Below the pieces are notes generated by a model. It worked only from the letters and a program-made list of their open reading frames with translations, was not told the origin of the DNA and ran no database searches. The translations under genes were made by a program, and so were the position numbers. From Aegotheles albertisi (taxonomy: Eukaryota), in contig CM078459.1 in NCBI GenBank assembly GCA_039906565.1, positions 18,787,066 through 18,851,065 of the forward strand: 64,000 bases of DNA, given 5' to 3'. The number at the start of each line of letters is the position of its first letter. Position 1 is the first letter of the stretch. Positions 2,152-62,883 of this stretch are shown one piece after another.

Positions 2152-3329
2152 CTTGTAAATTGCATTCCAATGTATTTGCTGATACAGCATCAACATAACA
2201 ATACTACATTATGTAGTGTTAGGACAGTAAAAGTTTCAAAGTTCCAGGTATTTGGTATGGATGGCTACCTGCTTTTAGCACCTAGAAATTAAGCAGATAA
2301 ACAAGATAAAAAAAATCTACAATAACAGATTCCCAGTAAAAGATAGTTACTGTCTTATAACCAACCTAGTGTATTTATAAAAATAAGTCACAATCTGCTT
2401 TTCCCTGGGCAATAGAAACAATTTGGACGACGAGTAACACTTTCTGCGCAGGAAGTCGGCATAATCCAAATTTTACTCTTATTATTTATTTATTTGAATG
2501 CAGCTAATATTCAAGCTGTGTATAATATTCTCTTCAGTAGTAAAAAGAGGGATTCAGAATTTTTTTTTAAAGTCTGCAGCAAAAGAAGAGAGGTGATTTG
2601 AGAAGTTGAAAGAGAGACTTCCCATGCAGGACCCCCGTATTAATGCAAAGCTTCAAACATGTACATCTAAATGCACACATTTTACTGAACATGTTTCATT
2701 GCAGTGCTGATCATTTTCATGTCTTCCTTAGTGTCTCATGGAAACTCTACAACCATGCTGCCCATTAGCTTCTTCCTCCCAACCAGCTTCTGTTTTTAAA
2801 TCCATCAAAAAAGAAGTTTGAAGACTGCAAAGGTTTCAGGGATAACCAAATCCCTACAAGCGCCATAAAACATGAATGAAGGTAGGCAGGAGACCCAAAG
2901 TGACTTCCTCACTTAGGAAGAAAAAGAGACAGAGCTGCTGCCGGTGGCAGCAAGAGCCTGAGCACTGAGCCCGGGCACCTCAGGCTGGTCTCAGGGCTAC
3001 GGACTCTGCCTGGGCACACGGTGTGATGGGGAACACGGAAGAAAGGGGCCAGGGGAAAAAGGACAGACAACCACAGCAGCCCAGGCTCAACAGTCCTGCT
3101 GATCAGGAAACAGCTTCTGAAAGCCCAAGCCACCATGCTGGCTCTCACTTAGCTTTCCCACCAGAAAAGGGGTTTGTGCTTCCAACCAGAGTTCGGCACT
3201 GTGACTAGGAGAAACGGTGGAATTCCCTTAACAAAACGTTTCCCAATTGCCCTCTGTTCTGAGACGCCACTGGAGGCTTCCCAGGGAGGTACAGACCCCT
3301 GCACAGCCAAACCCAAGCCTACGGGGCTC

Positions 3330-4520
3330 ACACGCTGTTTCTCCCGTCACCTTTCCGAGACCCTCCCGTGGCAACCTGCCAGCTCCAGGCTTCCCCTCCA
3401 CCTTCGTGCCAGCCGAAAGAGCTGGCAGGGCTGAAGCTGACCTGGCCCGGCCCGGGAGGGCGCGGAGGGACGAAGGGGTCCCAGGCGAGGGGGCAGGCCC
3501 GGCGCCTCCCTCCCCTCACGGCCGCCGCCCCAAACGCGGCGCTGGCCGCTGCCCCGGCCCCGAGGCACCCGCACCGCGACAGCTCTGACCCGCGACCCCT
3601 CGCAAGTACCGGGGCGAAAGCACCAGCGCCGCTCGTCCGGCCGCCGCCGCAGGAAGGCTTCGCTCCGGCTGCCACCCCTCTTCTTCTGTTACAAACCTGC
3701 CGCCATCGCACAGGCTCCCGGCGCCACCGGCTGGGCACCGCCCCGGCGCGACGCATGCTGGGAGATGTAGTGCCAAGCCGCCGCCTTCCCAGCCTCGCTG
3801 CGAGGCGGTGCTTCGGCCCTCGAACTACAACTCCCAAGAGCCTCAGCGGCGAAAAGGCCGTTGGCCGGCATCAACAGGGAAGTAGTGGCCCCGCAGTCGT
3901 CGCTGCCCGGGGCTGCTCAGGGCGGAGAGGCGGCGGCGCTCAGGGGGAGGGGTCTCCTTCGGGCAGCTGGGCCTGCGCTCCGCTCCTCGGGACGGCCCAC
4001 AGGGGGAGGCGGCTCACGGGGCCTCCCCGCGTCGCCGCTGGTGGCCCCTTGGAGAGCCGGGGCTTCTCCTCGGGCGGCGCCGCTCCGGAGGAGGCGGGAG
4101 GCCCTGTCCGCGCAGCGTCCTCCGGCGCGGGGCGTGAGGCGGCGCCCGGCCCGGTTCCGGCCCGCGAGGTGTCCGCAGGCCGTGCGGGCGGTGGCGTTTC
4201 CCGCGGGGGTGAGGCTTTGGACTTTTCCCGTTAAACAGTTGCCGTGAGGGGGGCGCGGGGAGAGGAGCGGGTGAAAAGCATCCCGTGGCGTTCGGGGTTC
4301 CGTGCTGCGGGCGCTCCGGCTCAGTGGGGGAAGGAGCGACCGCCCCAAGGGCAGTGCCATCCCCCAGACCGCGCCGCACAGCCCGGGCTGTCACCCGGCT
4401 TCGCAGGAGCAACCCCGAGCTCGGGCTGTGGAGCCCAGGGCAGCCCTGTGGGGTGCCCACTGCTGGTGCCCGTTGTCACCGCTGCTCTCTAGTCCACAGG
4501 GCTCTTCCCGCTGACCTTTC
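3330..4520. promoter_or_regulatory. CpG island, putative bidirectional promoter for CENPJ (-) and PARP4 (+). Non-coding first exons of both genes probably lie here.
   Basis: About 1.2 kb of very GC- and CpG-dense sequence lies between the divergently oriented first coding exons: CENPJ ATG at 2151 (minus) and PARP4 ATG at 9564 (plus, preceded by an acceptor at 9557). The long six-frame ORFs here are GC-composition artefacts. Confidence 0.6.
3824..3842. promoter_or_regulatory. ZNF143/SBS-like motif (ACTACAACTCCCAAGAGCC)
   Basis: The sequence resembles the extended ZNF143/THAP11 consensus ACTACAAYTCCCAGCARTGC. Such sites are typical of bidirectional CpG promoters. Identified by eye only. Confidence 0.35.
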
Positions 4521-4659: not shown

Positions 4660-5135
4660 GTCAGTGGGAAGACTTCAGAAGGGCAACAGAGCTGGGGAAG
4701 GGACTGGAAAATATGTCTTATGGGGAACGACTGAGGGAGCTGGGGGTGTTCAGTCTGGAGTAGAGGAGGCTCGGGGGACCTCGTCGCTCTCTACAGCTCC
4801 CTGAAAGGAGGTTGGAGTGAGGTGGGGGTTGGTCTCTTCTGCCGTGCCCATAGTGAAAGGACAAGAGGGAATGGCTTTAAATTGCAGCAGGGGAGATTCA
4901 GATTGGACATGAGGAGCATTTTTTTCACTGTAAGAGTGATTAGATATTGGAATAAGTTGCCCAGGGAGGTGGTGGAGTCACCATCCCTGGAGTCGTTCAA
5001 GAGGCATCCGGGTGTGGTGCTGGGTGATATGGGTTAGTGGTGATGTAGGTAGGGGTTGGACTGCATAATCTTGAAGGTCTCTTCCAACCTCAATGATTCT
5101 GTGATTCTATGATTTTATGATTCTAAGACACAGCA
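4660..5135 (+). mobile_element. CR1 LINE 3' fragment (ORF2 C-terminus plus 3' UTR with an ATTCTRTG microsatellite tail)
   Basis: ORF 4822..5037 encodes [46 protein letters not shown], the canonical CR1 ORF2 end. It terminates in atgattctgtgattctatgattttatgattct. Confidence 0.85.
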
Positions 5136-27264: not shown

Positions 27265-27870
27265 GGCCTGTATCAGAAGTGGTGTGACCAGCAGGAAGGA
27301 GTAGGGAGGTAATCGTGCCCCTGTACTCGGCACTCGTGAGACCGCACCTTGAGTACTGCGTCCAGTTCTGGGCACGACAGGATGGGAAGGACATTGAGGT
27401 GCTGGAGTGAGTCCAGAGAAGGGCAACGAGGCTGGTGAGAGGTCTGGAAAACAAGCCTTATGGAGACCGGCTGAGGGAACTGGGGTTATTTAGCCTGGAG
27501 AAGAGGAGACTGAGAGGAGACCTTATTGCCCTCTACAACTACCTAAAAGGAGGTTGTAGTGAGGCTGGTGTTGGTCTCTTCTCCCAAATTGCTAATGACA
27601 GGGCAAGAGGAAATGGCCTCAAGTTACATCAGGGAAAGTTTAGGTTGGATATTAGGAAGAAGTTCTTTACTGAGAGGGTGGTTGGGCACTGGAATAGGCT
27701 GCCCAGGCAGGTGGTGGAGTCACCGCCCCTGGGGGTGTTCAAAAAACGGGTTGATGAGGCATTTGAGGCCATGGTCTAATGGTCTGATGATTAGGAATAT
27801 GATGGGATAAAGGTTGGACTTGATGACCCTGGAGGTCCCTTCCAACCATAATGATTCTATGATTCTATGA
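27265..27870 (+). mobile_element. CR1 LINE 3' fragment in PARP4 intron
   Basis: ORF 27435..27779 encodes [38 protein letters not shown]...[39 protein letters not shown]. It ends in atgattctatgattctatga. Confidence 0.9.
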
Positions 27871-43789: not shown

Positions 43790-45065
43790 AGTCGGGCAAA
43801 AATGCCAGGAGGCCTGGCATGAACATGGACAAACAAGGAACTTCTGGAAAAACTCAGACATAAAAAGGAAGTAAACTGACAGTGGAAGCAGGGACGAGTA
43901 ACTTGGAAGGAGTATAGCGACGCTAGCTGAGCATGCAGAGACATCGCTAGGAAAGCCAAAGTCCACATGGAGTTGAATCTGGCAAGGGATGCCAAAGACA
44001 ACACAGTGGGCTTCTCTTAAGTGTCTAAAGTGGCAAAAGGAAGACTAGGGAAAATGTAGACCTGCTGCTGAATGGGGCAGGGGAACTGGTGACGCAGGAC
44101 ATGGAAAAGGCTGAGGTACTGAACACCTTTATTGCTTCAGTCTTTGCTAGCAAGACCAACCTTTGAAAATTCAAGGCCCCAGAGAGCAAGGGGGAAGTTT
44201 AGAGGAAGATGTACTCTTGGTGGAAGAGGAACGGGTCAGGGAATCCTTAAGCAAACTGTGGACATACATAAGTCCATGTGCCTTAGTGGGATGCACCCAC
44301 AAGTGCTGAGGGAGCTGGCTGATGCTGTTGTGAGACAACTCTCAAAAATCTTTGAATGATCATGGCAATTGGGAGAATTGCCTGAAGACTGGAGGAAAGG
44401 AAGTGTCACTCCTATGTTCAGGAAAGGCAAGAAGGAGGACCCACAGAACTACAGGCCAGTCAGCCTCACCATGATCCCTGGGGAGGTGGTGGAGCAGCTA
44501 ATCCTGGAAACCATTTCCAGGCACATGAAGGAAACCATTTCCAGGCACATGAAGTCATGAGAAGTAGCCAACATGGATTCACCATGGGGAAGTCATACTG
44601 GACCAACCTGATAAACTTTGAAGATGAAATTAGTGATGTGGTAGATGCAGTGGATATTGCAGGGGAGAGCAGTGGATATTGTCTGCCTGGACTTCCGTAA
44701 GCCTTCTGACACTGTTTCCTATATGATGCTTATACAGAAGCTGATAAAATATGGGCTGGATAAGCAGACAGTGAGGTGGATTGAAAACTGGCTGCATTCA
44801 GCCAGGCCCAGGGGGTGGTGATCAGTGGCAGGAAGTCTAGTTGAACACCCGTGATTACTGATGTACCCCAGGGGCCAATAGTGGGGCCTGTCCTGTTAAA
44901 AATCTTCATTAGTGTTCTGGATGATGTGACAAAGTTGTACCCTCAGCAAGTTTGCTAATGACACAAAACTGGGAAGAGTGGGTGATAGACCAGAGGGTCA
45001 TGCTGCCATCAAGAAGTGCCTCAGTAGGCTGGAGAAATGGGCTGACAAGAACCTCATGACATTAA
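43790..45065 (+). mobile_element. CR1 LINE internal fragment (about 1.3 kb, ORF2 endonuclease/reverse-transcriptase region, frameshifted) in PARP4 intron
   Basis: ORFs 44132..44359 and 44369..44560 encode ...GMHPQVLRELADAVVRQLSKIFE and ELPEDWRKGSVTPMFRKGKKEDPQNYRPVSLTMIPGEVVEQLILE. Downstream frames read FTMGKSYWTNLINF...DFRKPSDTVSYMMLIQKLIKYGLDKQTVRWIENWL (RT motifs). Several frameshifts. An internal 24-bp duplication lies at 44505-44552. Confidence 0.85.
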
Positions 45066-46267
45066 AAAAGAACTTTTACAGCTTTTTACAGTGTCCAAAA
45101 AGTTATTTTGTATGGTATATTAATATAAATAAGAGTAGGCCTGAATGAAGAATTCGGTGGAGATGCTGAGTAAAACAAGGATACCTTTTCCTATTTTTAC
45201 TGTTTCTTGATGTCTACTTTATTATGAAAAGCAATACCAATAGCGTATGTACATTATAAAAAATAGATTTTTCTGGAAATATTGCTTTCATGAGTAATAA
45301 CTCTCAACATTTGTAATTAAAGATCAAAAGACAGACATGCATTCCTAAAAACATCTGATTAAAAAGCAATTATAAAATGCAATGATGTGAAGTTATTCAA
45401 AATTCCCAGGTCAAGGACTACTTTTTAAACCAAGATCACTCAACTGAGTCAATTTAAATATCTTTCTGTAATGCACCTCAGTATTCCATCTGGTACAAAA
45501 CAGAAGCAATATTCGGGGAAAAAATATGTTGCAGAGTAGCAAAGAAACACCTGTGTGATTTCATGAACTGGTTGTTTACAAAGGGTGTCAACAGATCATT
45601 GTCTCTCCTGATTTTTATGTGTCTGGTTTTGCAGTTCTTCAAAAGATTTGGTTTCCCCTTGTCAGTATGATGCCTCTCAGGAATCAGACTTCTAGAATGT
45701 TATGTTTTAATTATGTCTGTAAATATAATAGCTTTCATCTCATTTCTAGTCTAGGATGACTTTTTTTGGCCCAGTGGAACAGAAAATTGCAGACATTTTA
45801 AGGCAAAATCACCTACATAACACAACGCAGTACCATGCAATATACCCAAAGTATCCCATCCAGCTTGGCACTGTTATCATACTATGCAATTTGTCTTCCT
45901 AACATGATTCTGCAGAATGCAATGTGTTTTAGCACATCTATAATGCTGCTTATGTTTGACAAAAAGACCTGCCTAAGATTTGGAATTGATTTAAATTATG
46001 TGGATTTGAACAAATTATACATACAAATACATACTGTCCACCTTTAAATTTCATGTGAATCTAGTTAATGACAATACGTTGTCTCTCAAAATAGTAAAAA
46101 ATGTGAAGTTACATTTACTGGGTTTTGTATATACTTAGTATTTTTAATGTGCTGCATTATCTGCTTATTCCCCGTTTTCAACACATTTCAAACTCACAAA
46201 AAAAATGCACCGTCTCTATAATGCCAGAGAATTTTCCGGTTTGTAACTGTGATGTATTTTAATTTAG

Positions 46268-46414
46268 GATGCTAATGAAACTCCTTCTGCTGATGCTCCA
46301 AACATCTTGGAAATTATAGCTCAAGAAGATGTAGATTTTTTACCTTATATGGACTGGGATGGAAAGTCAACAGAATTTGGCTGTTTCTTTTCAGAAGAAA
46401 TTGCCTTTGCCCCG
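46268..46414 (+). CDS. PARP4: PARP4 exon DANETPSADAPNILEIIAQEDVDFLPYMDWDGKSTEFGCFFSEEIAFAP
   Basis: Matches human DENESPFPDIPKVSELIAKEDVDFLPYMSWQGEPQEA. Acceptor ttaatttag. Donor GTAACT. Confidence 0.85.
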
Positions 46415-47472
46415 GTAACTACATTTAATATATGTTCTTATTGCTAACATTTTTGGTATATTATCCCGTTGTGGTGCTGTATTGTATATGTAAACATGTA
46501 GCAATCATTCATGAAATCTGTTCAATTTTAAATTATTTTTAATATAATTAATCCCACACAAGTACTGTGTGGAATTCTACTATAAACACAAAAATTTCGA
46601 GGAACCTGTCCCAAAAATAAAGTACACTTAAAAATATCGTGAGTGCAGCAGAAGTTTTGAGAGACAATGTGATAATACAGACTTCTTTTCCCTCCCAGAA
46701 GAAACTAACACCTGTTAGAGCATTCTCTCATAAGAATATGCTAGTGTAGTAGGAGCCTTAAATTCTACTCCTAAGAAACTCAGGGGGAGAGGAGGGGAGT
46801 TTCAAGGAAAATCAAGGTATTTATCCGTAAAAAAGCAGAGAGGTACAGCCAAAGCAGCGAGACTACAGGGAATGAAGATAAGCATGACTGTAAGAAGAGG
46901 ACATATTGCTAGTATGCAATGGGACAATCTCTGGGATGATGAGGGAGCAATGAGAAAAACTTGAACTAGTAGAATTGGATGTTTGCTAGTTATGGTAGCT
47001 CTCTCTTGGCCTTGGAAACTACAAGAGATGCTTGCATCAGTTAGCCAGCAAGTATAATTCTGTCAGTCTGTAAAGTCTTAACAGATTAAAGCTTTACATC
47101 TCAAAATTGTGTAGGTGACTCAAGAAAATAATTTAATAGACAAATAATGATGTTGTGCATGACCATGATGTGCATTTAATACCACTCAGGAGCATCATCT
47201 CAGCCTGTAGTCTGTAATGTATTAAGATTGTGAGTTATTTAGAATGATAACTGGATGTGTGTTCTGTATCTAAGGTCAACTCATACAAAGCCATTTTCCT
47301 GATCCTTTGGCCCAAGAATTCCTAGGCAGAAGAGTACCAAACATATACATTAGCATGTGGTGATGGTATAGCCCAGGCTCACTAGCTTGAATGCAGCAGC
47401 TACTGGACCTCAGCTGGTACATGTGCCAGAATTGCAGCAGAAGCAGGATCCATACCTCACTTTGTGTAGATC

Positions 47473-47554
47473 TACAGGGTGTTTCAAAAAGATGGACCCA
47501 ATTTCAATGACAGGATGCTTTGAAATTGGGTCCATCTTTTTGAAACACCCTGTA
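47473..47554. mobile_element. Perfect palindrome (35-bp arms, 12-nt loop) flanked by TA/TA. Putative Tc1/mariner-type MITE (Galluhop-like).
   Basis: TA|CAGGGTGTTTCAAAAAGATGGACCCAATTTCAA-tgacaggatgct-TTGAAATTGGGTCCATCTTTTTGAAACACCCTG|TA. The arms are exact reverse complements. The TA flanks are consistent with a Tc1/mariner target-site duplication. Explains the mirrored ORFs 47387..47596(+) and 47410..47667(-). Confidence 0.5.
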
Positions 47555-47595
47555 TCTTCTCTGTATGTACCACTATTGTACAGCAGAACTTTATA

Positions 47596-47765
47596 GAATA
47601 TGCTGAGTTGGAAGGAACCCTCCAGGATCATTGAGTCCAACTCCTGTCCCTCTGCAGGACACCCCAAGAGTCACACCATGTGCCTGAGAGCATCATCCAA
47701 ACGCTTCTTGAACTCGGGCAGGCTTGGTGCTGTGACCACTGCCCTGGGGAGCCAAATTCCTTGGC
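47596..47765 (-). mobile_element. CR1 LINE 3' end fragment (minus orientation)
   Basis: tatagaatatgctgagttggaaggaaccctccaggatcattgagtccaa...gggcaggcttggtgctgtgaccactgccctgggg is the reverse complement of the CR1 3' terminus. Confidence 0.8.
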
Positions 47766-47839
47766 TTATAATCATTGTTATATTTATTAATCATTTGTAT
47801 CTTAATTATGTAAAATACGTCTCTGCTCATATTTTGTTA

Positions 47840-50040
47840 CAGTCAAACTTTTCTCTGAATTTGCCTGTGTAAGGTAGAACAGGGTAAGAAATTTCTACTT
47901 TAACTGACATATTACTTTAATTTTGAACATACGAGTGACAATATAATGATACTGCACACACTATAAGAAGAAATACTGTTTTGATTGAAAAGAGAAAAGT
48001 ATCTTACTAACTCTGGAATTACTTTGTTTACCTGTAATTTTACTGGACAGGCATGTTTCCAAGAAGTTAATTCAGCTTCTTTACTAAGTGAGGAAGTTGA
48101 ACCTGAAAGACTCCTATTTCAACCAGAAGTTGTTCCTGTTGGTGAAAAGAGCATCTCACCAAAAAACATTCTGCAGGGCTCTGGAAATGTTTCTGAACTT
48201 GGAAGTAGTACTTGCGGTTTCAAATCAAATTTCAGTTTTGATGGAAGTATCACAACAGAGAAATCATCTGGATCAAGGTCACCTTTACCATGTGCCCTTA
48301 ATCTACTGAAAGTCGCTGAACCCGTCTTGTCATTTGGTTTTGGAGAAATTCATCAGACTCTACAAGATTCACTTCAGACTCCTGGATTTAGAAGAACAGG
48401 TGTTTGTGGGGGTGTTCCTAAACCTGCTCCTCCTCCTCCTCCTGCCTCTTCTTTTCAAAAATCGGTGGGAGACATGAAACCAGCTTTTTATTCTTGTGTT
48501 CCTCCAATGGGTTCAGCATTGTTTGGTTCACCTATTCCCATATGCGCAAATTCTGGAGAGACTAATGTTGGAAAACAAGTTGTTGTTCTTTGTGCTAATA
48601 AAAAAGAAGCACCGCTACGGACAAAGTGTAAGAAAAAGGCAGTACGTAAGCATGATGATACGGCTCCTGAAGAAGGATCTACTGAGGAGTTTAAAGCTGT
48701 GGTGAGTCTTCCATCATTATATATATTTTATATATTTTTTATATATCTTTTATATATAGGATGCTGCACATCATGTTGAAATCCAACCTGAATTCAGCTA
48801 ATGAAAGCTTCCTTAAGCGTTTGCATTTCAATGTTCATGGATGTACAGCCAAAAAAAGAACATGGGAAGGCTGGTGATGAGGCCGCTTTCCAACTCAAGA
48901 AATTACTTCGTATCATCTAGTAATAGCTATATGGGTCAATCTTGCTGTTTTATGCCAACATGAAGGATTCAACAAAGTCTTCCAGTCAGTTCAGTAAATA
49001 CAAATGAAATTCCTGAGCTCCAAAATCAGTACCCATCTTCTATTCATGCATTGCCTAAAAAATGAGTAGAAGGAAAAAATATCTTTGGAGATAAACATTG
49101 TGTAAATTATTTTGTTTTCTTTGCTTTCAAACTGATTTTATAAAGAGAATGATGACATCAAAGTCATGCTATTTTTTGTTCCTTTCATGGGCAATCCATC
49201 ATGCTTAAGAAACAGTATAAAATCAGAGCCAACAAGTGGTGATAACATCTCAAGAGTCAAATTTTACTCTGTATTTGCCCAGTATAAGGTAAAATAGGGT
49301 AAGAAATGTTGGTTTCGAACAATACGTTTTTACTTTCATTTTGAACATACAAATGACAGTATAATGGTAATGTGCATAATACAAGAACACATACAGTTTT
49401 GATTTTCACATACAGTTTTTGATCTTTTTGAATCAAAGAGAAAAAATGTCTCCCTGACTCTGGAATTATTTCATCCCTTGTAGTTTTGCTGAACAGGAAC
49501 TTCCTCCAGCTGTAACTCATGCTTGTGCAAATGCTTTCCTAAGCGAGAGAGAATGAACCTTTTCATCCAGAAAAAGAGGTTTCTTTTTAAAAAGAGGAGT
49601 GTTTTTTAAAAACGTTTAAATGCAATTACTTTGTATTAGGATGTAGTAGCTGCATGGGTAATGGTGATAAGATTCTTAGTTAACATTATCCTCTCCAGGG
49701 TCAACCAGGGTGCCTTAGAACAACAGCTAAAAAAAGGAATCAACAGAGAATTGAGTTGCCTTCTGTAAACTGGAAAGAAATTTTTGCACTCCAAAATCAG
49801 GTACAGTACCCATAGTCTATTTTGTGCACTACTTAAAAATACAATATAGGTAGAAGGAAAAAAATTTTTTTTACTTTAATCCTGTCCTGAGAAAAAGTAA
49901 AATACATTTATAAAAATGTTTATAAACAGATTTTACAAGTGTATGATGACATCAGTCATTCTGTGTTTTATTGTTTTCACGGGCAATTCAGCAATGGATA
50001 AGTAAGGAACAGTATAAAATCAGGGCAAACCGGTACTAGT
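47840..50040. repeat. Diverged tandem duplication. Copy 1 (about 47840-49245) contains the 651-nt PARP4 exon. Copy 2 (about 49246-50040) is the same unit lacking the exon.
   Basis: Pre-exon blocks match (aggtagaacagggtaagaaatttctactttaactgacat...ttgaacatacgagtgacaatataatgatactgcacaca vs aggtaaaatagggtaagaaatgttggtttcgaacaat...ttgaacatacaaatgacagtataatggtaatgtgcata). Post-exon blocks match (ctccaaaatcagtacccatcttctattcatgcattgcctaaaaaatgagtagaaggaaaaaat vs ctccaaaatcaggtacagtacccatagtctattttgtgcactacttaaaaatacaatataggtagaaggaaaaaaat). Unit ends match (catgggcaatccatcatgcttaagaaacagtataaaatcagagccaac vs cacgggcaattcagcaatggataagtaaggaacagtataaaatcagggcaaac). Confidence 0.7.
48051..48701 (+). 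CDS. PARP4: PARP4 large exon (217 codons) encoding the poorly conserved Ser/Pro-rich region (ACFQEVNSASLLSEEVEPERLLFQPEVVPVGEKSISPKNILQGSGNVSELGSSTCGFKSNFSFDGSITTEKSSGSRSPLPCALNLLKVAEPVLSFGFGEIHQTLQDSLQTPGFRRTGVCGGVPKPAPPPPPASSFQKSVGDMKPAFYSCVPPMGSALFGSPIPICANSGETNVGKQVVVLCANKKEAPLRTKCKKKAVRKHDDTAPEEGSTEEFKAV)
   Basis: Open 651-nt frame bounded by acceptor ttttactggacag and donor GTG|GTGAGT. Phase 0/0 fits the neighbouring exons. Position and Pro-rich composition correspond to the human PARP4 low-complexity region. Residue-level homology is weak. Confidence 0.7.
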
Positions 50041-54629: not shown

Positions 54630-56959
54630 GGGTCTTACAGTCTTGATTTGACATATATGTACTATTTTACTTACCTGTAACTGCTAAGAATACCTTAATA
54701 TTTCTTTTTTTACAGTAATCATTTTGGTTGATTGCACATTATAAAAGCACTTTTATAATATCTTCGTTTTGATTTCTCCTAAAATCTTATGTACTTCTTC
54801 AATGGCATGGTAAAGCAAGCATAGTGTAGTAATTCAGTTAAGCATGGCAGATGTTTTGACAGATACAAGAATATCATAAACAAAGAACTAATAAATATCT
54901 TCATAAAATATCAGTGTTTGCAATTGGATTGTTTTTTAATTCCTACAGTGTGCCTTGAAATGCAAACAGCAGAACAGTTATTTTTCCTCCTGCACTGCTT
55001 TTCTTATCGGTCACAGTCCGTTTGTGAGTATATAGGTCAGGAAGAAGTTCTCTCTCTTTTTTTTGTTGCTGTTACTCTGTATCCTGATTTTATTCTATTT
55101 TATATATATTTTATACTGGACCAGACACTGGAACCTAATAACTAAACCAGACTAAAGGGGATTTATTTTCATTTAATGGGCTTTTCACAGGTGTTTAAGT
55201 GAACACATTACCTCTTCTAAACTAAGGAGCTGCGCAGAATCACACCTTGGTACTTAGTGATCTGAGGAAATGTGGTTACGAGACACAGTACAATTACACC
55301 AAGGCGGGATCCAGTGTGCACAGAACACACCATGCAGTTGTTTGTCCAGCCATTGAAAATACTCTGGAGCAGAAGTTCCACAGCCAGCTTAGCCGGTGTG
55401 TTCCACTGCCCTTGCAAACAGAGACTGCTCCCCAGCAGCAGCAGGGAAGTGTTGTAAGAGGTTACTAAGGAAAATTCTGGAATGTCTCTCATAGATGAGT
55501 ATTTGAGCAAACATCTGCTGAGGATGGAGTAGATACACGTGATCTTGTAGAGGAGGTTGCCAAGAAGGGGTATCCTGAGGTCCTTCTGTTTCTAAGGGTC
55601 CTTGTTTTCATGTGTATAACAATACCAGCTCTTTTTAGTAGCAAGTACAAAGGAAATACTTGTACTGCACTTCCTATTTGAGAAGAGCTTGGGTATGGGT
55701 TTCTTAAGAACTAGACTCCTTACTGTAGACAACGCTAAGCCAGCTTCTAAATCTGCTGTGAAGTCTTTGTATACTCAAGGGCTGTGTTACCAGCATTACC
55801 TTGGAAAGGAACCGATTGAATTTATACTTTTCTCTCACTGCAGTTAATTTTCCTATGAACTATGGAGCTGTATGAGGCAGTTGGGTGTTCTCACTGTCGC
55901 ACACAGCACACTGGAGCCGGGGTCTCGCCTCAGGGATGAGAAACCACTTGTGAGATGGGGCCTTTGCTAGGGCCAGTGCCAGGGGTTGTTCAGCAGGCAC
56001 AGGGGCTGGGGTGGCTTGTTACAGGTTTGTCTCTTTTCCTCCGGATTGTTACATGGAGAGGCTGTGCTTGCCTGCAGGTGGGCATTTTAACGCGTAATTC
56101 CATGAAATGTGAAAGGATTCCTGTTCCCAGTGAGAGACCTCGCCCTGGGGCACCCCTGCCCACCCTTCCTCCGTGTTCCCCTTGCCCTGCTGAGGGCACA
56201 CATGTTATAAATGACTTTGAGGCATATAGCAATTAATCAGGTTTATTAGGCAATAGCAGGCAAGCAAACAGCGCTGGGTGTGCAGGGAGTCACCGCTCCA
56301 CCAATACACACACCTTCATCAACACTCCACTCGCTGTATGTGTGGTTACATGTTACATATTCAGTGCATTACCTAACACACCTATACATATTCATGACCT
56401 ATCCCCGCTTCGTATTATAGTGAGTTTAAAAGTCATTTTCATGTTATTACACCTGCGCAGTGCTTCCTGGTGGTCGTGGGCAGGGGTCTCCAGGGATGAA
56501 GTAAGGGTCTTCCTCAGTCTTGCACTTTTCACCCCTTTGTGCTGAGCATGCTCACTAGTTTCTTAGCCACAGTCCAGTCACAAGGCTGGTTCCCACTGGT
56601 TTGGGACCCAAGGTGTAGGCACAATGTTACGGTTACTCCCTTTATCAGTGGTTGTGTCCTTGCCTCCCTTTTATCCATAGTGCTGTATCCTCCCTTTTTG
56701 CCTTGACAAGCATAATAAATTTCAAGCGAGCAGTATGCATTGATTAGCGAGCAGCTCTTCACAGATCATTCTTTAACCCATTCCTTAACTCCTAATTCCC
56801 TTACATCAAGTTCAGTGTGCCGTGTCGGTTTCTGTAACCGCAGCACATCTGTGTCTGGCTCGGTTTTCATCCCGTTTGCTCGTAATTCTCCTCTTGCCGG
56901 CCTCAGGTCTTTCCCACAGTTACAGGCTTGGTCCAACTGCCGATTTAATTGACACGAAT

Positions 56960-57499
56960 CATTCTTTAGCCCGTAACACACGTGCTGTGCTCGGACCGGG
57001 GGGTTCGGCACACGCCCGCTTTTACCGTGGACCAGCCCGGCCCGCCCGGGCACGGCACCAGCGGCGGGAACGCGCCCCCGGGGCTCAGCCACCGCCTCCC
57101 GAAGGGCCGCCGCGCCAGGGGCCGGCCCCAGGAAGAGCCCCCGGGGCACCGTGCGGGCGCGCAGCTCCGGCGGTCACCCGGCGCTCGCCTCTCGCCGACA
57201 GGACCGGGGCCGTGCAGCGCAGCACCCGCCTCTGCGGCGGGCACCGGGCTGGAGGGGAGCGCAGCCCGGCCGGAGTGAGCGGGGCCGCGCACAAGGCGGG
57301 CCCGGCGGGAGCGCGCGGGAGCCTCCTGCTGCCGCCCCCGCCACGCGGAACTCGCGAAGTCTCCGGGCGCGGGGCCCCGCCCCCGTGCGTCACGGGCTGG
57401 CGGGGCGGCGATTGGCTGCGGCGCCGCCTCGCTCCCCCCGCGCGCGGCGGTGGATGTCGCAGCCGCTTTTCCCCGTTGTCGTTTGAAACTCGGCCCAAA
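56960..57499 (+). promoter_or_regulatory. MPHOSPH8: MPHOSPH8 CpG-island promoter / 5' UTR. GC box at 57371-57385, CGTCA (CRE-like) at 57388-57393, inverted CCAAT box GATTGGCT at 57410-57417.
   Basis: Very CpG-dense sequence ends at a Kozak-context ATG (AAAATGG) at 57500. The CCAAT, Sp1-like and CRE-like elements sit 85-130 bp upstream of the ATG. The island continues through exon 1 into intron 1 (to about 58100). Confidence 0.6.
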
Positions 57500-57736
57500 A
57501 TGGCGGCGGCGGGGAGCGGGGCTGAGGCGGCGGCGGCCAAGCTGGAGGGGGCGGAGGAAGAGGAGGGGACGGCGGCCGCGGCGGAGGAGGACGAGGAAGA
57601 GGACGGGGAGGCTGGCGGCGGTAGGGCGGGCAAAGCGGCGGGCAAGGCGGCTGCAGCCGGCGGGGAGAGCGAGGAGGAGGAGGAGCAGGAGGACGTGTTC
57701 GAGGTGGAGAAGATCCTGGACGTGAAGACCGAGGGG
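57500..57736 (+). CDS. MPHOSPH8: MPHOSPH8 coding exon 1 (MAAAGSGAEAAAAKLEGAEEEEGTAAAAEEDEEEDGEAGGGRAGKAAGKAAAAGGESEEEEEQEDVFEVEKILDVKTEG)
   Basis: EDVFEVEKILDVKTEG matches human MPP8 EDVFEVEKILDMKTEG immediately preceding the chromodomain. Donor GGG|GTAAGC at 57737. Confidence 0.85.
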
Positions 57737-57869
57737 GTAAGCGCCCGGCCGCCCTGGCCGCCTCCTGAGCGGGGCCGGCGGCTGCCCCGGGTCGGGTTTC
57801 GCCTCCTCCCGGAGGAGGTGCGGGTCGGAGCGGTCGCCATGCGCCGGCACGGGGCGGGCCGGAGTGCGC

Positions 57870-57900
57870 CCCCCTCCCTCCCTCCCTCCCTCCCTCCCTC
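57870..57900. repeat. (CCCT)n microsatellite, about 7.5 units
   Basis: cccctccctccctccctccctccctccctc sits in MPHOSPH8 intron 1, about 130 bp downstream of the exon 1 donor, inside the CpG island. Confidence 0.9.
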
Positions 57901-60900
57901 GCCGGGCGCCCCGCGGGCAGGGCCGCGCTCGGGCGGGTTTCCCTGGGCAGGAGCTTCGGGAGCTGGTGCCGAGCTCAGCGGGACCGGGCTGAGCGCCCTG
58001 CGGAGCCTGTGAGGGTCTCCCAAAATGAGGGAGGCTCCTTCCGATTGAAATAACCAGCTGCAGCCACCTCTGTCCAGGCACAACCACCGCCTCTCGGCTG
58101 GCTCTGGAAGCAGCCCCGGCTGGTGGGACTTCTAAAATGTTCTGAACCTCAAATACCAAAAATCATCAATACCAGTGTGGGTTTTTAAGATGATTCTGTG
58201 TCTTACAGTTGTTTATTTAAACTAATTTTAACTAATTTATGGGATTTATTTTAGGCTTCAGTCAGGTGTGTGACAGTATAGAATTCTGCCTGTTCAGTGT
58301 AAAACATCAGGGTTTGGAGAGCCTTCAGATTAAGAATTTCTTACATATTTGTGATATCATGCTTAAGTTGAAATATCTTGATGACTTAAGAATGTTGTGG
58401 AGGGGGGTCAATACCGTTCCACACACACAGAGTATCAGCATACACTGAGCACAGTATTTTAAAAATGTCATTAGCATGTGCTGGTGGAAAGGTGTCTTGT
58501 GCCTCCTCTTTCTATTACCACCCTCTTCCTTCAAGCAGCCCGTTCTGCAGCAGGTTCTGTGCTGTGTGCTGGGTCAGTAAATAGCTTTGCTGTATGCGTG
58601 TGCCTTTCCCAGTGTGTGCTGGTTTGACATGCACTCCAGTTGCACCAGGTCACCTTTCCCTTGCTCTCAGGTGAGGGCCACGTTCCTGTGCTTCAGAAAT
58701 ACAGGGCAAGATACTCACACCTAGGCCTGACTTCCAGAATGGCTGAAGAAAGCTGTGTGTTACATTCAGTGGAGTTTATTTTACATGGTCTGCTTTAGAC
58801 TCACAGTCTCCAGCTTGCAGATTCCCAAATCTCATACAAAGTCCCCGAAGGTACACTGGGTCAGCCACTGTCCGGCACTGCTAAGGCCAGTCCATGCGTC
58901 CCTGTGTCCCAGCTGCAGGGGCAGGGGAGCTGGGGAGCACCACACAGAGAAGCTCTTGCCATTTGCAGTCCTGATGTTGCTGGAGCTGGTAGTGGTAGCA
59001 TGAGAGAGACAGCACTGTGGGGGTGGGATGAGGCTGGAGAGTTAGACCTGCTAACAAATGAAACATTTAACATGTCCTGCTTGAGAGGACAAGCAATAAA
59101 AGTTTGGAAATGTCTCCTCTCAGTATATCTAGGAAGCTTTTCATACTGCACTGAATTTCTTCTGCAACAACAGGCTCCAGCCCAAATTGTGACATTGCCC
59201 AGTGGAGATGGGAAACCTTAACTCCGCTGTTTAATGATGTGGTGATGCCCCTTTCCATAGGAGTTGTTTCTAGCCCATGATGAGTTCTCAGAGAAGTATA
59301 AAAATGCTTGGAAGTGTTCTATTATTCGTAAGTGATACAGAAATAAAAAATAACAATGTTGAATAAAATAATGCTGATAGGTGAGCGTAGGGCTGTGTGT
59401 GTATCTTCAGTATGATGATCAATCCCCTGCCTTCACTTAAGCTTCATTTTTGTATCACTCTCTGTGTACTGGGTATAGAATTGTTCAACAGCTGAATATT
59501 CTTACATTTGCACTAGGCTCTATTTTATCCAGCTTTCTCAGTTAATTAAAAAAGGACTTGTAACTTGTTTTGTACCAGTGTTACAAGGGTGTAGCAGTAA
59601 CTGTGCAGCTGGGTGAAGTCCCAGATCTGAAATGGCATAGCCCGGTACCACCGGGGAAGGTGAGAGGCGGGCTGTAGGAACCAGCCATGTGGGAAGGCAG
59701 CTGGGAGTCCCCACAGAGAAGTAAGCTGAACGTGAGTCAGCAGTTCTTGCAGCAAAGAATGCCAACAGCATCCAGCAGTGTAGCCAGCAGAGGTGAGCAG
59801 ATGCTTCTTGCTCGCTTCCAAGCACTGCCGAGATGCATGTGGAGTACGGCGTGAGGTTGTGAGTTCCCCAGGGCGGGAGAGGTATGGACATGCTGGAGTG
59901 AAGGGTTATGAAGGGTTCGGGGAGCTGGAGCATGGGAGGCTGGCCGAGCTAGGTCTGCTCTGCCAAAAGAAGGGAATAATCAGGGATGGTCATAGTGGTA
60001 TCTCATTTGCTTAATGAAAGGGTGTAAAGAGGACAGGGTCAGATCCTTTTCAGAGATGGACAGTGGGAGAATGAGAGAGGCAGTGGGCACAAGCTGGGAC
60101 GCAGGGAAATCTGTATAGATAGAACCTGACTGGGCAGGTTTCTGAGCAGCCTGATCCAGCTGGTCCTGTTTTGAGCAGGGCATTTTACTTTCTAGTTCTG
60201 GAGACCCCTTATAACCTACATTGTTCTGTGACTGTAGTAAGAAGGTCACTAGTCCCTTATTTTGTGAATAACCCCTTAGAAGGAAGAGAGAGAGAGAGGT
60301 CTTTGAAAACTGAATCAAGTTCCTGAATCAAGTTCCTGAATCAAGAGCATATGGTTAAGCTAAACCATAAGAGACATTACACTGGTGTATCTGAATACAG
60401 GCTATCTGTTTATGTGTCTGTGAAGCAGAACACAGAAGGTTGTAAACAAAGTTGGTTACTAAAGTTTAATGGCATATATATGCAGACCTTGGTAAAAGGT
60501 TAATGGTGCTCAGGCAAAACCTTAAATTTATGGATATCAGTACATTTAATAGTAAGTGTCAAATGGCAGTTCTTTGGAAGCTTTCCTTCTCCCGACTTGG
60601 TTAGCAGTGTAGGATCATTGCGAGTGTTACCAATCTCTTTGTGAAAGAAAGAGATACTATCATTTTGCCTCTCCAAAGGTGCTTTCCTTAGTACATTCAC
60701 TAATGTTTTTTTATTTAGGAAGTAAGTTCAGGAATGGCTATGTTGCCATTATTAGCTTTTTTTATATGGAATATGGATTTTCTTAAATTTGGTGCCAGCT
60801 TTTGTCATACATCTGCTTAAAGAGACTGCAGGTTTAATCGCTAAAGGTGACCACATTGATTCCACAGGACACGTCTCTGCTTGGTGCAGGAGGCCCTGAG

Positions 60901-61845
60901 TTTGCCACTTGTCTGGCTATATCAGCAACATGATGAGTCCAAACTAATAACCTGCCCTCAGCAGGAAAAGGCGTACGTCTTGGGACACCTAAGGATTAAG
61001 ACTACTTAAAGTATTAATAATTTGATGGAAATAATTTGTGGACAATACAATAATTTGGTGGAAAGCTTTCGGGTTTTTGTTTGGTTTTTTTAGTGGTAAA
61101 AGACTTCCTAATCTAGTGAAAAAACAAGATAGAGACTAAAAGGTGCAATTTCATCCTACGGTAAAGTTAAATACTCTTGAAACAATTTGTTTAGGGCTTT
61201 TGTATGTAAACTTTTACCAAAATCTTTGTAACTAACTCCACTGAGATGCACGTGCTCAGACTTTGTCTAGGTTTAGCTTGATCTCACTGGTGGTTTATTT
61301 TGTTGTTTTCTGATTGTTGGTATTTCAGTTTATCAAAGGTGGCACTAATTACAAATCTAACAGAAGTTGTCAATTCCAATATAAAACTGGGTGGATGGTG
61401 CTAATGCATTATAAATCTGAAGCGTTTACACCAACTTCTTCAGCACAGAGAAGCAATTCAAGCTTGAAATTTTTATAGAAGAAATATTAAAACATTAAAA
61501 ATAGTTTCATAACTGTCAGAAAATCCATTTCAGTAAAATGACTGGGAATTTATGATCTGTACATTATAGCTGTGGTTCTGAACAAATTTTACATATTACA
61601 AATATTTTGGCTAAAACCACTTCAACTATGGAAATGTTTTACGGTCTACTTAGTATGGAAATAATTCTGGGAATTCTTATGGAAATAATTCTGGGAATTC
61701 TTATGTCAATATTGGGCTGAACTCCCATTATATTATATTAATTTCTGTATACACAAAATGATGTATCTGCCAAGATCCCCAAGAACTGAGCTGGTGATAC
61801 AGTACTGTGCTGTGTTGTATTAAATGCTGGGCTTTTTTCTTACAG

Positions 61846-62001
61846 GGTAAAATTCTTTACAAAGTACGGTGGAAAGGATATACCTCAGATGATGATACCT
61901 GGGAACCAGAGGTTCACTTGGAAGACTGCAAAGAAGTGCTGCTTGAATTCAGAAAAAAAGTTGTGGACAATAAGCCTAAACCTGTCAAAAAAGACATACA
62001 G
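61846..62001 (+). CDS. MPHOSPH8: MPHOSPH8 exon 2, chromodomain (GKILYKVRWKGYTSDDDTWEPEVHLEDCKEVLLEFRKKVVDNKPKPVKKDIQ)
   Basis: Near-identical to human MPP8 GKVLYKVRWKGYTSDDDTWEPEIHLEDCKEVLLEFRKKIAENKAKAVRKDIQ. Acceptor ttttcttacag. Donor GTGTGT. Confidence 0.93.
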
Positions 62002-62883
62002 GTGTGTTTCACCTTCCAGTATCTTACACTGAAGACATATTCCCCATCCAGGCTCTGCTAATGGGAGAGGGAAGATGTTTGGGATATGGAATTAAGAAGG
62101 CTTAAAGAATCTCATCGATCTAAAAGTGGGGTTTTTTTCATTTGAAACTGAATATTGTTGCTACTCTCTGGTTAGGGAATTTTTTGTTAATTGACAAGTT
62201 TGCTTGTAGAATGTAAATTCATCTGAACTTAATTTCAGTTTTTTAATGAGACTATAAAAATTATGTATGGTCATTTATTTTGTTTATGACAACATAAACA
62301 ATGCCCTTTCCCTACCCACATGCATATTGTCTTGTCAGTGAGGCTGGGCACTACTCGATTCACCCTCCTGCTTTTTGTAGCAGATTTTTGCATGTTAATC
62401 ATTAAATTTGGTAAGATAAGAATACAGAAAAATTAACTGCAAGAAAGCAATGTATGACTTTTTTAACTGCTCAGTCAGTTTGAAAAAGAAGCATAAGAAT
62501 CTTTCTTGAAAACTAGTACCCTACTTACGGGAAATCTGTAGGTAAATTTTACAAAATCAGGTTAATTGTTTTTGATGTAAAATAGTTCAGATTTAGTTCT
62601 GATCTGGAATCTGGTTCTTGAGTGTCTTACTGGTTTACTTGTCTTCTTTGTGTGTTGATTCTCATCCAAGCAGTTAGTAATTTAATTTGGTAAGTGAGCT
62701 AGGGTTGTGTTTACAAATTTTACAATTTGACAATGAGGAATGATGTTTGCAGTGATTAAAAGATTAAAGTGTTTAAAAATTTACTTTTCCCAAGCACCAC
62801 CACTAGCATTTTTGTATAGTTTACACCAAAGTGATACACTTTAATGGGGAAATTAATCTTTCCTTTTTTTCCCTGCCTTTTAG

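What the first reader, a model, noticed from the sequence alone, without database searches (positions are those of the whole stretch)
47473..47554. Perfect 35-bp-arm palindrome with TA/TA flanks in a PARP4 intron: candidate Tc1/mariner MITE or hairpin RNA precursor
The two arms are exact reverse complements over 35 bp and are separated by a 12-nt loop. The structure is bounded by TA on both sides, the target-site duplication signature of Tc1/mariner elements. Arms beginning CAGGGTG...AAAAAG resemble Tc1-like inverted repeats. The complete absence of mismatches suggests either recent insertion, maintenance of a hairpin, or gene conversion between arms. Such a hairpin transcribed within the PARP4 pre-mRNA would be a perfect about 35-bp dsRNA stem, long enough to be a Dicer substrate. 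A CR1 3' fragment lies immediately downstream (47596-47765).
Basis: seen in the sequence. Interest (0 to 1): 0.6.

Follow-up and report, generated by a model that had tools for sequence, protein, structure and literature searches.

The report
Tiny palindromic mariner-type transposon relic
The perfect 35-bp palindrome is real and is a 78-bp "ends-only" remnant of a cut-and-paste (Tc1/mariner) transposon sitting in a PARP4 intron; it is not the known chicken Galluhop family, and its ends closely match a transposon family found in termite DNA, which hints at an insect-to-bird transfer, but the element itself is most likely an inert passenger.

Summary
Arms 47473-47507 and 47520-47554 are 100% complementary over 35 nt with a 12-nt spacer. 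This is the only strong inverted repeat in the 64 kb, and the RNA hairpin is -60.8 kcal/mol (z -11).

The outer TA of each arm is the flank, so the element proper is 78 bp (47475-47552): two 33-nt terminal inverted repeats (TIRs) around 12 nt.

The TIR is homologous to the ends of a TA-flanked Tc1/mariner family in insect DNA:
- 29-30 of the first 31 nt match copies in metagenome contigs that look like termite host DNA.
- 31/34 nt match a copy in the Cryptotermes secundus genome.
- More distant elements match less: a cockroach relative 19/31, an aphid rosa element 21/31, Galluhop 16/31.

The insect elements encode a DUF4817-HTH plus DDE_3 transposase with a D(86)D(46)D triad, and 31 of 33 distinct ends are TA-flanked.

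The palindrome is therefore a MADE1-like, TIR-only derivative of a mariner-type transposon inserted at a TA. It is not Galluhop.

Not shown: other copies in the host genome (no vertebrate genome was searchable), an empty site, or any small RNA. The identical arms only limit its age to under about 18-30 Myr. The hairpin-RNA reading rests on structure alone.

Verdict: new member of a known kind, moderate interest.

The parts
47473..47474 (.). Left TA: presumed target-site duplication. It also forms the outermost pair of the palindrome.
   Evidence: In the related insect family 31 of 33 distinct element ends are preceded by TA.
47475..47507 (+). Left terminal inverted repeat, 33 nt: CAGGGTGTTTCAAAAAGATGGACCCAATTTCAA. 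Homology to the C. secundus TIR runs one base further, to 47508.
   Evidence: Matches 29/31 to the termite-contig consensus, 30/31 to the 3'-type ends, and 31/34 to C. secundus L035.
47508..47519 (+). 12-nt spacer TGACAGGATGCT. It has no convincing counterpart in the insect elements.
   Evidence: The only hit is a 13-nt match at E = 0.06, judged to be chance.
47520..47552 (-). Right terminal inverted repeat, 33 nt, the exact reverse complement of the left one.
47553..47554 (.). Right TA: presumed target-site duplication.
47475..47552 (.). The whole non-autonomous element, 78 bp, with no coding capacity.
46268..46415 (+). Context: putative upstream PARP4 exon (open frame, AG acceptor, GT donor). 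The boundaries are inferred and the phase does not join directly to the next listed exon, so the exon map is incomplete.
48051..48720 (+). Context: putative large downstream PARP4 exon. It lies inside a 264-codon open frame (47985-48779), with an AG acceptor at 48049-48050; the 3' boundary is approximate. The element lies about 500 nt upstream of it.
   Evidence: No database homologue was found, so 'exon' is an inference from ORF length and strand.
47590..47770 (-). Context: CR1 LINE 3' fragment on the minus strand, about 40 bp from the element.

Best explanation
The palindrome is a 78-bp non-autonomous 'ends-only' derivative of a Tc1/mariner-superfamily DNA transposon. It consists of two identical 33-nt terminal inverted repeats around 12 nt of spacer, and it was inserted by transposase-mediated cut-and-paste into a TA dinucleotide in a PARP4 intron. 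Its architecture is that of human MADE1 (2 x 37-bp TIR + 6 bp). The TIRs are the binding and cleavage sites of a transposase supplied in trans by an autonomous relative. The closest detectable relatives are about 1.3-kb elements and 350-580-bp MITEs in termites. Those elements encode a roughly 350-aa transposase with a DUF4817 HTH, a second HTH and a DDE_3 domain carrying a D(86)D(46)D triad. Termites and birds cannot share such an element by descent, so the lineage must have entered the vertebrate germline horizontally, either directly or through intermediates. Today the copy is most probably immobile and neutral. When PARP4 pre-mRNA is transcribed it will fold into a perfect 35-bp hairpin, but nothing indicates that this is used.

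Shown: the structure, the TA flanks, TIR homology to transposase-bearing elements, and the non-identity with Galluhop.

Inferred: transposition as the insertion mechanism, horizontal origin, present inactivity and neutrality.
For: Structure.

TIR homology. An exact 20-mer scan of metagenome contigs gave 31 loci. In 25 of them the match continues to about position 31, is preceded by TA, and in most has an inverted partner 349-582 bp away that is also TA-flanked (alignment A1). The other 6 loci (4 distinct sites) stop at the 20-mer, as expected for chance hits. Across 33 distinct insect ends the consensus equals the window arm at 29 of the first 31 positions, and 31 of the 33 ends are TA-flanked.

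Link to a transposase. L032 has a TA plus TIR about 170 bp upstream of a frameshifted transposase ORF. L033:335-1647 is a TA-flanked 1313-bp element carrying ORF P0281, and its 3' TIR contains GACCCAATTTC as in the window. L035:2336-3650 in the Cryptotermes secundus genome (GCA_002891405.2) is a TA-flanked 1315-bp element whose TIR CAGGGTGATTCAGAAAGATGGACACAATTTCAATTG matches 31/34.

Transposase class. DUF4817 and HTH_32 are found at the N-terminus. DDE_3 is found in 17/20 members. The profile matches the Sleeping Beauty catalytic domain 5cr4 (E = 5.6e-5), with the three acidic residues aligned. Named homologues are 'Tc1-like transposase DDE domain-containing protein' from C. secundus, Coptotermes formosanus, Blattella and spiders.

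Specificity gradient of TIR identity: cockroach 19/31, aphid rosa 21/31, Galluhop 16/31.

Precedent for TIR-only palindromic mariner MITEs: MADE1 (PMC1784062).
Against: Only one copy is seen, and no vertebrate genome could be searched, so amplification in the host is unproven. There is no empty orthologous site, so TA duplication is inferred from the family rule; because TA is itself palindromic it cannot be distinguished from part of the arm. Homology rests on 31-34 nt per arm. Inside that, the window element and the insect elements are unrelated, so the immediate parent is unknown. No transposase of this family was detected in any vertebrate source among the top hits. The host species of the window, and the termite origin of the JGI/ENA metagenome contigs, are inferred rather than read from a record; only L035 is from a named termite genome.
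Confidence: 0.85

Rival explanations
1. Solitary in-situ deletion product. A full-length (about 1.3-kb) element of this family once inserted at this TA and was reduced to its two ends at this locus by abortive gap repair after excision or by internal deletion. On this reading the 78-bp structure was never itself mobile and there is no MITE family.
For: No second copy exists in 64 kb. The 12-nt spacer has no counterpart in relatives, as expected for a deletion junction or filler. Internal-deletion derivatives of many sizes exist in the insect family, from 349 to 582 bp.
Against: It requires the parent's two TIRs to be identical over 33 nt, whereas the two ends usually differ at 1-4 positions in the insect copies. 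TIR-only mariner derivatives such as MADE1 are known to amplify (PMC1784062). Absence from 64 kb says little for a family that might have hundreds of copies per Gb.
Confidence: 0.2
2. Functional hairpin RNA gene. The palindrome is maintained because the intronic transcript is processed by Drosha/Dicer into small RNAs, as a mirtron-like or MADE1/miR-548-like miRNA or an endo-siRNA.
For: The hairpin is a perfect 35-bp stem with a 12-nt loop at -60.8 kcal/mol, which is pri-miRNA-like in size (my own knowledge, not tested here). It is transcribed in sense within PARP4. There is a precedent in MADE1 giving rise to hsa-mir-548 (PMC1784062).
Against: No Rfam family reaches its gathering score, and the hits are to unrelated long-hairpin plant MIR models. 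No paper in the library contains the arm sequence. Arm identity needs no selection. No expression or conservation data could be obtained.
Confidence: 0.05
3. Assembly or library artefact, or contaminating insect DNA stitched into the scaffold.
For: Perfect palindromes can arise from chimeric reads, and the closest relatives of the arms are in insects.
Against: Artefactual fold-backs duplicate the neighbouring host sequence, whereas here the arms are foreign TIRs. They are bounded exactly by TA...TA, with unrelated host sequence resuming on both sides. Contamination would give whole foreign contigs, not a precise 78-bp insertion inside an intron next to a CR1 fragment. The spacer and positions 32-34 differ from every insect copy retrieved.
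Confidence: 0.02

Closest known systems
MADE1 (human Hsmar1-derived MITE, source of hsa-mir-548)
   Same: Same architecture. It is about 80 bp, made almost entirely of two mariner-type TIRs (37 + 6 + 37 against 33 + 12 + 33 here), is a near-perfect palindrome, often lies in introns, and forms a stable hairpin when transcribed (PMC1784062). TA flanks are expected for MADE1 as a mariner derivative (my knowledge; not checked in the paper).
   Different: The sequences are unrelated (13/31 TIR positions, from my recollection of the MADE1 consensus). The parent transposase is of a different lineage: DD34D cecropia-type mariner against a D(46)D DUF4817-bearing lineage. Copy number and small-RNA output are documented for MADE1 but unknown here.
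Termite Tc1/mariner family with DUF4817 + DDE_3 transposase (Cryptotermes secundus 'Tc1-like transposase DDE domain-containing' / 'DUF4817 domain-containing' proteins, and MITEs in termite-like metagenome contigs)
   Same: The TIR matches 29-31 of the first 31-34 nt, both have TA flanks, and both begin CAGGGTG.TTCA.AAAGATGGAC.
   Different: Insect copies are 349-1547 bp and carry subterminal and coding sequence that the window element lacks. Beyond nt 31-34 there is no similarity. The host is an amniote rather than an insect.
rosa / Visitor (DD41D) and maT (DD37D) families of Tc1/mariner
   Same: These are also DDD-type transposases with TA duplication and TIRs of about 32 bp. The aphid rosa TIR AAGGGTGTCTCAAAAAGAACGCCGGATTTRAA shares the AGGGTGT.TCAAAAAGA...ATTT.AA pattern (PMC5490172). 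maT TIRs start with CAGGG (PMC8472432).
   Different: The related insect transposases have 46 residues between the second and third catalytic D in 13/13 sequences, not 41 or 37. TIR identity is only 21/31.
Galluhop / Mariner1_GG (the mariner family and MITEs of chicken and turkey)
   Same: It is a mariner-type DNA transposon with TA duplication and abundant MITEs in Galliformes (PMC5556988).
   Different: Its TIR is GAGGGTGCTCTGAAAGTAATGCC (16/31 identical). Its MITEs are 500-600 bp. There is no BLAST similarity between the element and the Galluhop consensus, and no Galluhop copy in the window.

Membership tests
Tc1/mariner-derived non-autonomous element (MITE) | Terminal inverted repeats homologous to those of a transposase-encoding Tc1/mariner element | tested here: met
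   Identity of 29-31 over the first 31-34 nt to the ends of L033 and L035 (elements with a transposase ORF) and L032.
Tc1/mariner-derived non-autonomous element (MITE) | TA target-site duplication | tested here: inconclusive
   TA is present on both sides and complementarity stops just outside it, and 31/33 relatives are TA-flanked. However, no empty site was available, and TA is self-complementary.
Tc1/mariner-derived non-autonomous element (MITE) | Small size and no coding capacity | tested here: met
   78 bp.
Tc1/mariner-derived non-autonomous element (MITE) | Multiple dispersed copies in the same genome | not testable with these tools
   No vertebrate genome is searchable. There is no second copy in the window. 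Window ORFs are absent from the contig collection.
Tc1/mariner-derived non-autonomous element (MITE) | Autonomous partner, present or past, in the same genome | not testable with these tools
   Every organism-named eukaryotic homologue among the top 120 transposase hits is an arthropod.
Galluhop / Mariner1_GG | Sequence identity of the TIR and subterminal regions to the Galluhop consensus | tested here: not met
   Consensus taken from PMC5556988 supplement 3. BLAST gave only 10-12-nt chance matches, and the TIR matches 16/31.
rosa / Visitor (DD41D) | 41 residues between the second and third catalytic aspartates of the transposase | tested here: not met
   Tested on the insect relatives, because the window element encodes nothing: D(86)D(46)D in 13/13 sequences. 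The acidic residues were assigned by alignment to Sleeping Beauty 5cr4.
IS630-Tc1-mariner transposase (for the insect relatives) | DDE_3-type catalytic domain preceded by HTH DNA-binding domains | tested here: met
   DDE_3 in 17/20 members, best E = 3.6e-9. DUF4817 and HTH_32 at the N-terminus. Profile hit to SB100X.
Known miRNA / hairpin RNA family (Rfam) | Score at or above the family's gathering threshold | tested here: not met
   Best hit is MIR5070 at 46.1 bits against 100. All hits are below threshold and driven by structure.
miRNA or endo-siRNA precursor (functional) | Small RNAs of defined size mapping to the arms | not testable with these tools
   No expression data. Only the fold is known: a 35-bp stem, 12-nt loop, -60.8 kcal/mol.

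The most novel reading that the evidence does not exclude
The element is the footprint of a so far unrecorded horizontal transfer of an arthropod (termite-lineage) D(46)D Tc1/mariner family into a bird germline within the last few tens of millions of years. It left MADE1-like 78-bp palindromic MITEs that standard avian repeat libraries miss because they are so short. On this reading the copies are dispersed in transcribed introns and supply ready-made 35-bp hairpins from which lineage-specific small RNAs could arise.
Probability: 0.25. Interest if true: 0.6.

Novelty: new member of a known kind. Interest (0 to 1): 0.4.

Why it matters
DNA transposons are scarce in bird genomes. Chicken is described as having only two DNA-transposon 'species', Charlie and Mariner1_GG/Galluhop (PMC4992247), and only a handful of horizontal transposon transfers into birds have been reported (PMC5556988). 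A TA-flanked element whose ends are 90-97% identical to a termite transposon family would be an additional arthropod-related invasion, and a possible dated marker for the host lineage. It would also be an avian counterpart of MADE1, the textbook case of a palindromic MITE that became a miRNA family. For PARP4 itself the insertion is probably of no consequence.

Tried and rejected
(1) Galluhop/Mariner1_GG membership was rejected on sequence.

(2) Known RNA family: Rfam at E <= 10 gave only sub-threshold, structure-driven hits.

(3) Literature search for the arm sequence as DNA or RNA found nothing relevant. The metagenome contig prefixes were not found in any paper, so 'termite gut metagenome' remains my inference.

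(4) Getting orthologous or independent assemblies of the locus failed. The search for homologous proteins with the large exon returned nothing. Exact look-ups of two window ORFs were not on record. Host species, empty site and read support therefore could not be addressed.

(5) Viral and prokaryotic genome collections had no TIR match with three different patterns. This gives no hint of a viral vector, and the metagenome hits are not bacterial.

(6) Origin of the 12-nt spacer: only a 13-nt match (E = 0.06) inside one insect element, dismissed as chance.

(7) DD41D/Visitor membership for the parent family failed on the spacer length. The primary Visitor paper (PMC7486958) is not held, so its TIRs and host range could not be compared.

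(8) The argument from 'no mismatches' to selection or gene conversion was rejected by a simple rate calculation.

(9) The splice phase of the two flanking putative exons does not join. The exon map around the element is incomplete, and 'intron' rests on gene extent and strand.

Full report
OBSERVATION

The sequence at 47473-47554 is TACAGGGTGTTTCAAAAAGATGGACCCAATTTCAA - TGACAGGATGCT - TTGAAATTGGGTCCATCTTTTTGAAACACCCTGTA. The repeat finder gives two 35-nt arms that are 100% complementary and 12 nt apart.

The element proper is therefore 78 bp (47475-47552), with 33-nt arms. Complementarity ends immediately outside the TAs.

The structure is far beyond chance. The 33-mer with up to 3 mismatches occurs only at these two places, and no shuffle produced a match. 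It is the only strong inverted repeat in the 64-kb window; the runner-up is 29 nt at 76%.

As RNA it folds at -60.8 kcal/mol (z = -11.3). As DNA it folds at -41.5 kcal/mol (z = -13.8).

CONTEXT

On the + strand the window encodes, in order:
- a BRCT-like exon at 9.5 kb (below Pfam's cut-off);
- a PARP catalytic exon at 25.9 kb;
- VIT exons at 29.7-30.9 kb.

This is the PARP4 domain order. A chromodomain gene starts behind a CpG island at about 57 kb.

The element lies between + strand open frames with splice-site-like edges, 46268-46415 and 48051 onward. It is most likely intronic and transcribed in sense. The exon map is inferred, and the phases of these two frames do not join directly.

About 40 bp downstream is the 3' end of a CR1 LINE on the minus strand. 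CR1 content and gene order suggest a bird, but the species could not be established.

WHAT IT IS

The element is not Galluhop. The published Galluhop consensus (PMC5556988, supplement 3) has the TIR GAGGGTGCTCTGAAAGTAATG... and shares no BLAST-detectable similarity with the element.

An exact 20-mer from the arm was scanned against the metagenome contig collection and hit 31 loci. Six of them (four distinct sites) match only the 20-mer, have no TA and no partner; that number is about what chance predicts.

In the other 25 loci:
- the match continues to about position 31;
- it is preceded by TA;
- in most it has an inverted, TA-flanked partner 349-582 bp away.

These are classical MITEs of several size classes.

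Over 33 distinct ends the consensus is CAGGGTG[A/T]TTCAAAAAGATGGACTCAATTTCGTA... The window arm agrees with it at 29 of the first 31 positions. It differs at one A/T polymorphic site and at one site where the window's C also occurs in insect copies. Thirty-one of the 33 ends are TA-flanked.

LINK TO A TRANSPOSASE

The MITEs carry the 5' part of an ORF with a DUF4817 helix-turn-helix. Longer copies link the same ends to a full transposase:
- L032 has TA plus TIR upstream of a frameshifted ORF running through IFSDEATFH and FQQDGAPPH.
- L033:335-1647 is a TA-flanked 1313-bp element carrying ORF P0281. Its 3' TIR contains GACCCAATTTC, as in the window.
- L035:2336-3650, from the Cryptotermes secundus genome assembly, is a TA-flanked 1315-bp element. 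Its TIR CAGGGTGATTCAGAAAGATGGACACAATTTCAATTG matches the window arm at 31 of 34 positions, including the inner CAATTTCAAT that the metagenome copies lack.

The transposase belongs to the IS630-Tc1-mariner group:
- DDE_3 is found in 17 of 20 aligned members.
- A profile of the family matches the Sleeping Beauty catalytic domain (5cr4, E = 5.6e-5), with the three acidic residues aligned.
- Named homologues are 'Tc1-like transposase DDE domain-containing' or 'DUF4817 domain-containing' proteins of C. secundus, Coptotermes formosanus, Blattella germanica, spiders and other arthropods.

The catalytic triad is D(86)D(46)D in all 13 sequences that keep both motifs. This fits none of the published DD34D, DD37D, DD39D or DD41D classes, and 'DD46D' does not occur in the searchable literature. 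The TIR motif resembles that of rosa/DD41D elements (PMC5490172) and starts with CAGGG as maT elements do (PMC8472432).

TIR identity to the window arm falls off with distance, which calibrates how specific the match is:

| Source of TIR | Identity to window arm |
|---|---|
| Termite-like metagenome contigs | 29-30/31 |
| C. secundus (L035) | 31/34 |
| A Logan contig of unknown host | 26/31 |
| Aphid rosa element | 21/31 |
| Blattella germanica | 19/31 |
| Galluhop | 16/31 |

No match exists in the viral or prokaryotic genome collections.

MECHANISM

The best-supported reading is a TIR-only, non-autonomous derivative of this mariner-type lineage. It would be mobilised in trans by the family's transposase and integrated at a TA.

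The boundaries of the palindrome coincide exactly with the transposon terminus plus TA. This is what distinguishes it from a generic genomic palindrome or a fold-back artefact.

The architecture, 33 + 12 + 33, is that of MADE1, 37 + 6 + 37 (PMC1784062).

A family shared at this level of TIR identity between termites and an amniote cannot be vertical, so a horizontal introduction, direct or through intermediates, is implied. This is an inference from 31-34 nt per arm. The interior of the element has no counterpart in the insect copies, so the immediate parent is unknown.

WHAT IS NOT SHOWN

1. Copy number in the host genome. No vertebrate genome is reachable with the tools, the window holds no second copy, and look-ups of window ORFs failed. 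An in-situ deletion of a once full-length insertion therefore remains a live alternative, which I put at about 0.2.

2. The empty site.

3. Any function. The perfect arms do not call for selection or gene conversion: two CpG-free 33-nt arms remain identical with P > 0.05 for about 18-30 Myr at 1.5-2.5e-9 substitutions per site per year.

4. Small-RNA production. The hairpin has pri-miRNA-like dimensions and sits in a transcribed intron, so processing is conceivable by analogy with MADE1 and miR-548. But Rfam gives only sub-threshold, structure-driven hits, and no paper contains the sequence. I put that reading at about 0.05 and an assembly artefact at about 0.02.

VERDICT

The Tc1/mariner origin holds. 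The Galluhop suggestion does not. MITE amplification and the hairpin-RNA function are untested.

This is a new member of a known kind, a MADE1-like mariner MITE. Its unexpected feature is a close relationship to a termite transposon lineage whose transposase has an unusual 46-residue D-D spacer. Interest is moderate.

Noticed in passing
L032, L033, L035 and proteins P0270-P0389 (alignment A2): The arthropod transposase family behind the TIRs has a D(86)D(46)D catalytic triad in 13/13 sequences. [quoted passage not shown] The string 'DD46D' is absent from the searchable literature.
   Followed up: partly
L005:648-1224, L012:1448-2024, L025:825-1406: Some insect MITEs of this family (577-582 bp) carry the same 70 nt or more at both ends, meaning two inverted copies of the 5' end. 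The family therefore repeatedly generates long-armed palindromic derivatives, which is relevant to how a perfect two-arm mini-element could arise.
   Followed up: partly
L035 (C. secundus NEVH01016946.1:207189-213034): The termite copy with the best TIR match sits on the opposite strand inside the range of a gene annotated with ArgoN/PAZ/Piwi domains. In other words, a transposon lies within an Argonaute/Piwi-family gene.
   Followed up: no
P0291: A 207-aa fragment of this eukaryotic transposase is deposited as 'MAG: transposase, partial [Pseudomonadota bacterium]' on a 668-bp contig. It is most likely host-insect DNA binned into a bacterial MAG.
   Followed up: no
P0266: A 245-aa protein joins the DUF4817/HTH N-terminus of this transposase family to a complete TXNDC17-like thioredoxin domain. 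It is either a chimeric gene model or an exonised transposon fragment.
   Followed up: no
window 3000-4500 and 56800-58000: There are two GC-rich CpG-island-like stretches with very long spurious ORFs on both strands. The second precedes a chromodomain gene (FEVEKILDVKTEG at about 57.6 kb; chromo exon at 61798-62058), which looks like MPHOSPH8 lying head-to-tail after PARP4.
   Followed up: partly
window 4735-5034, 27288-27776, about 44000-45150, 47590-47770: Several CR1 LINE fragments with recognisable ORF2 C-terminal translations are present. No Galluhop or other DNA transposon copy was detected anywhere in the window.
   Followed up: partly
window 47985-48779: A 264-codon + strand open frame, presumed to be a large PARP4 exon, found no homologue at all in the 5.8-billion-protein collection. 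Vertebrate proteins may be essentially absent from that collection, or this exon may be very fast-evolving.
   Followed up: no
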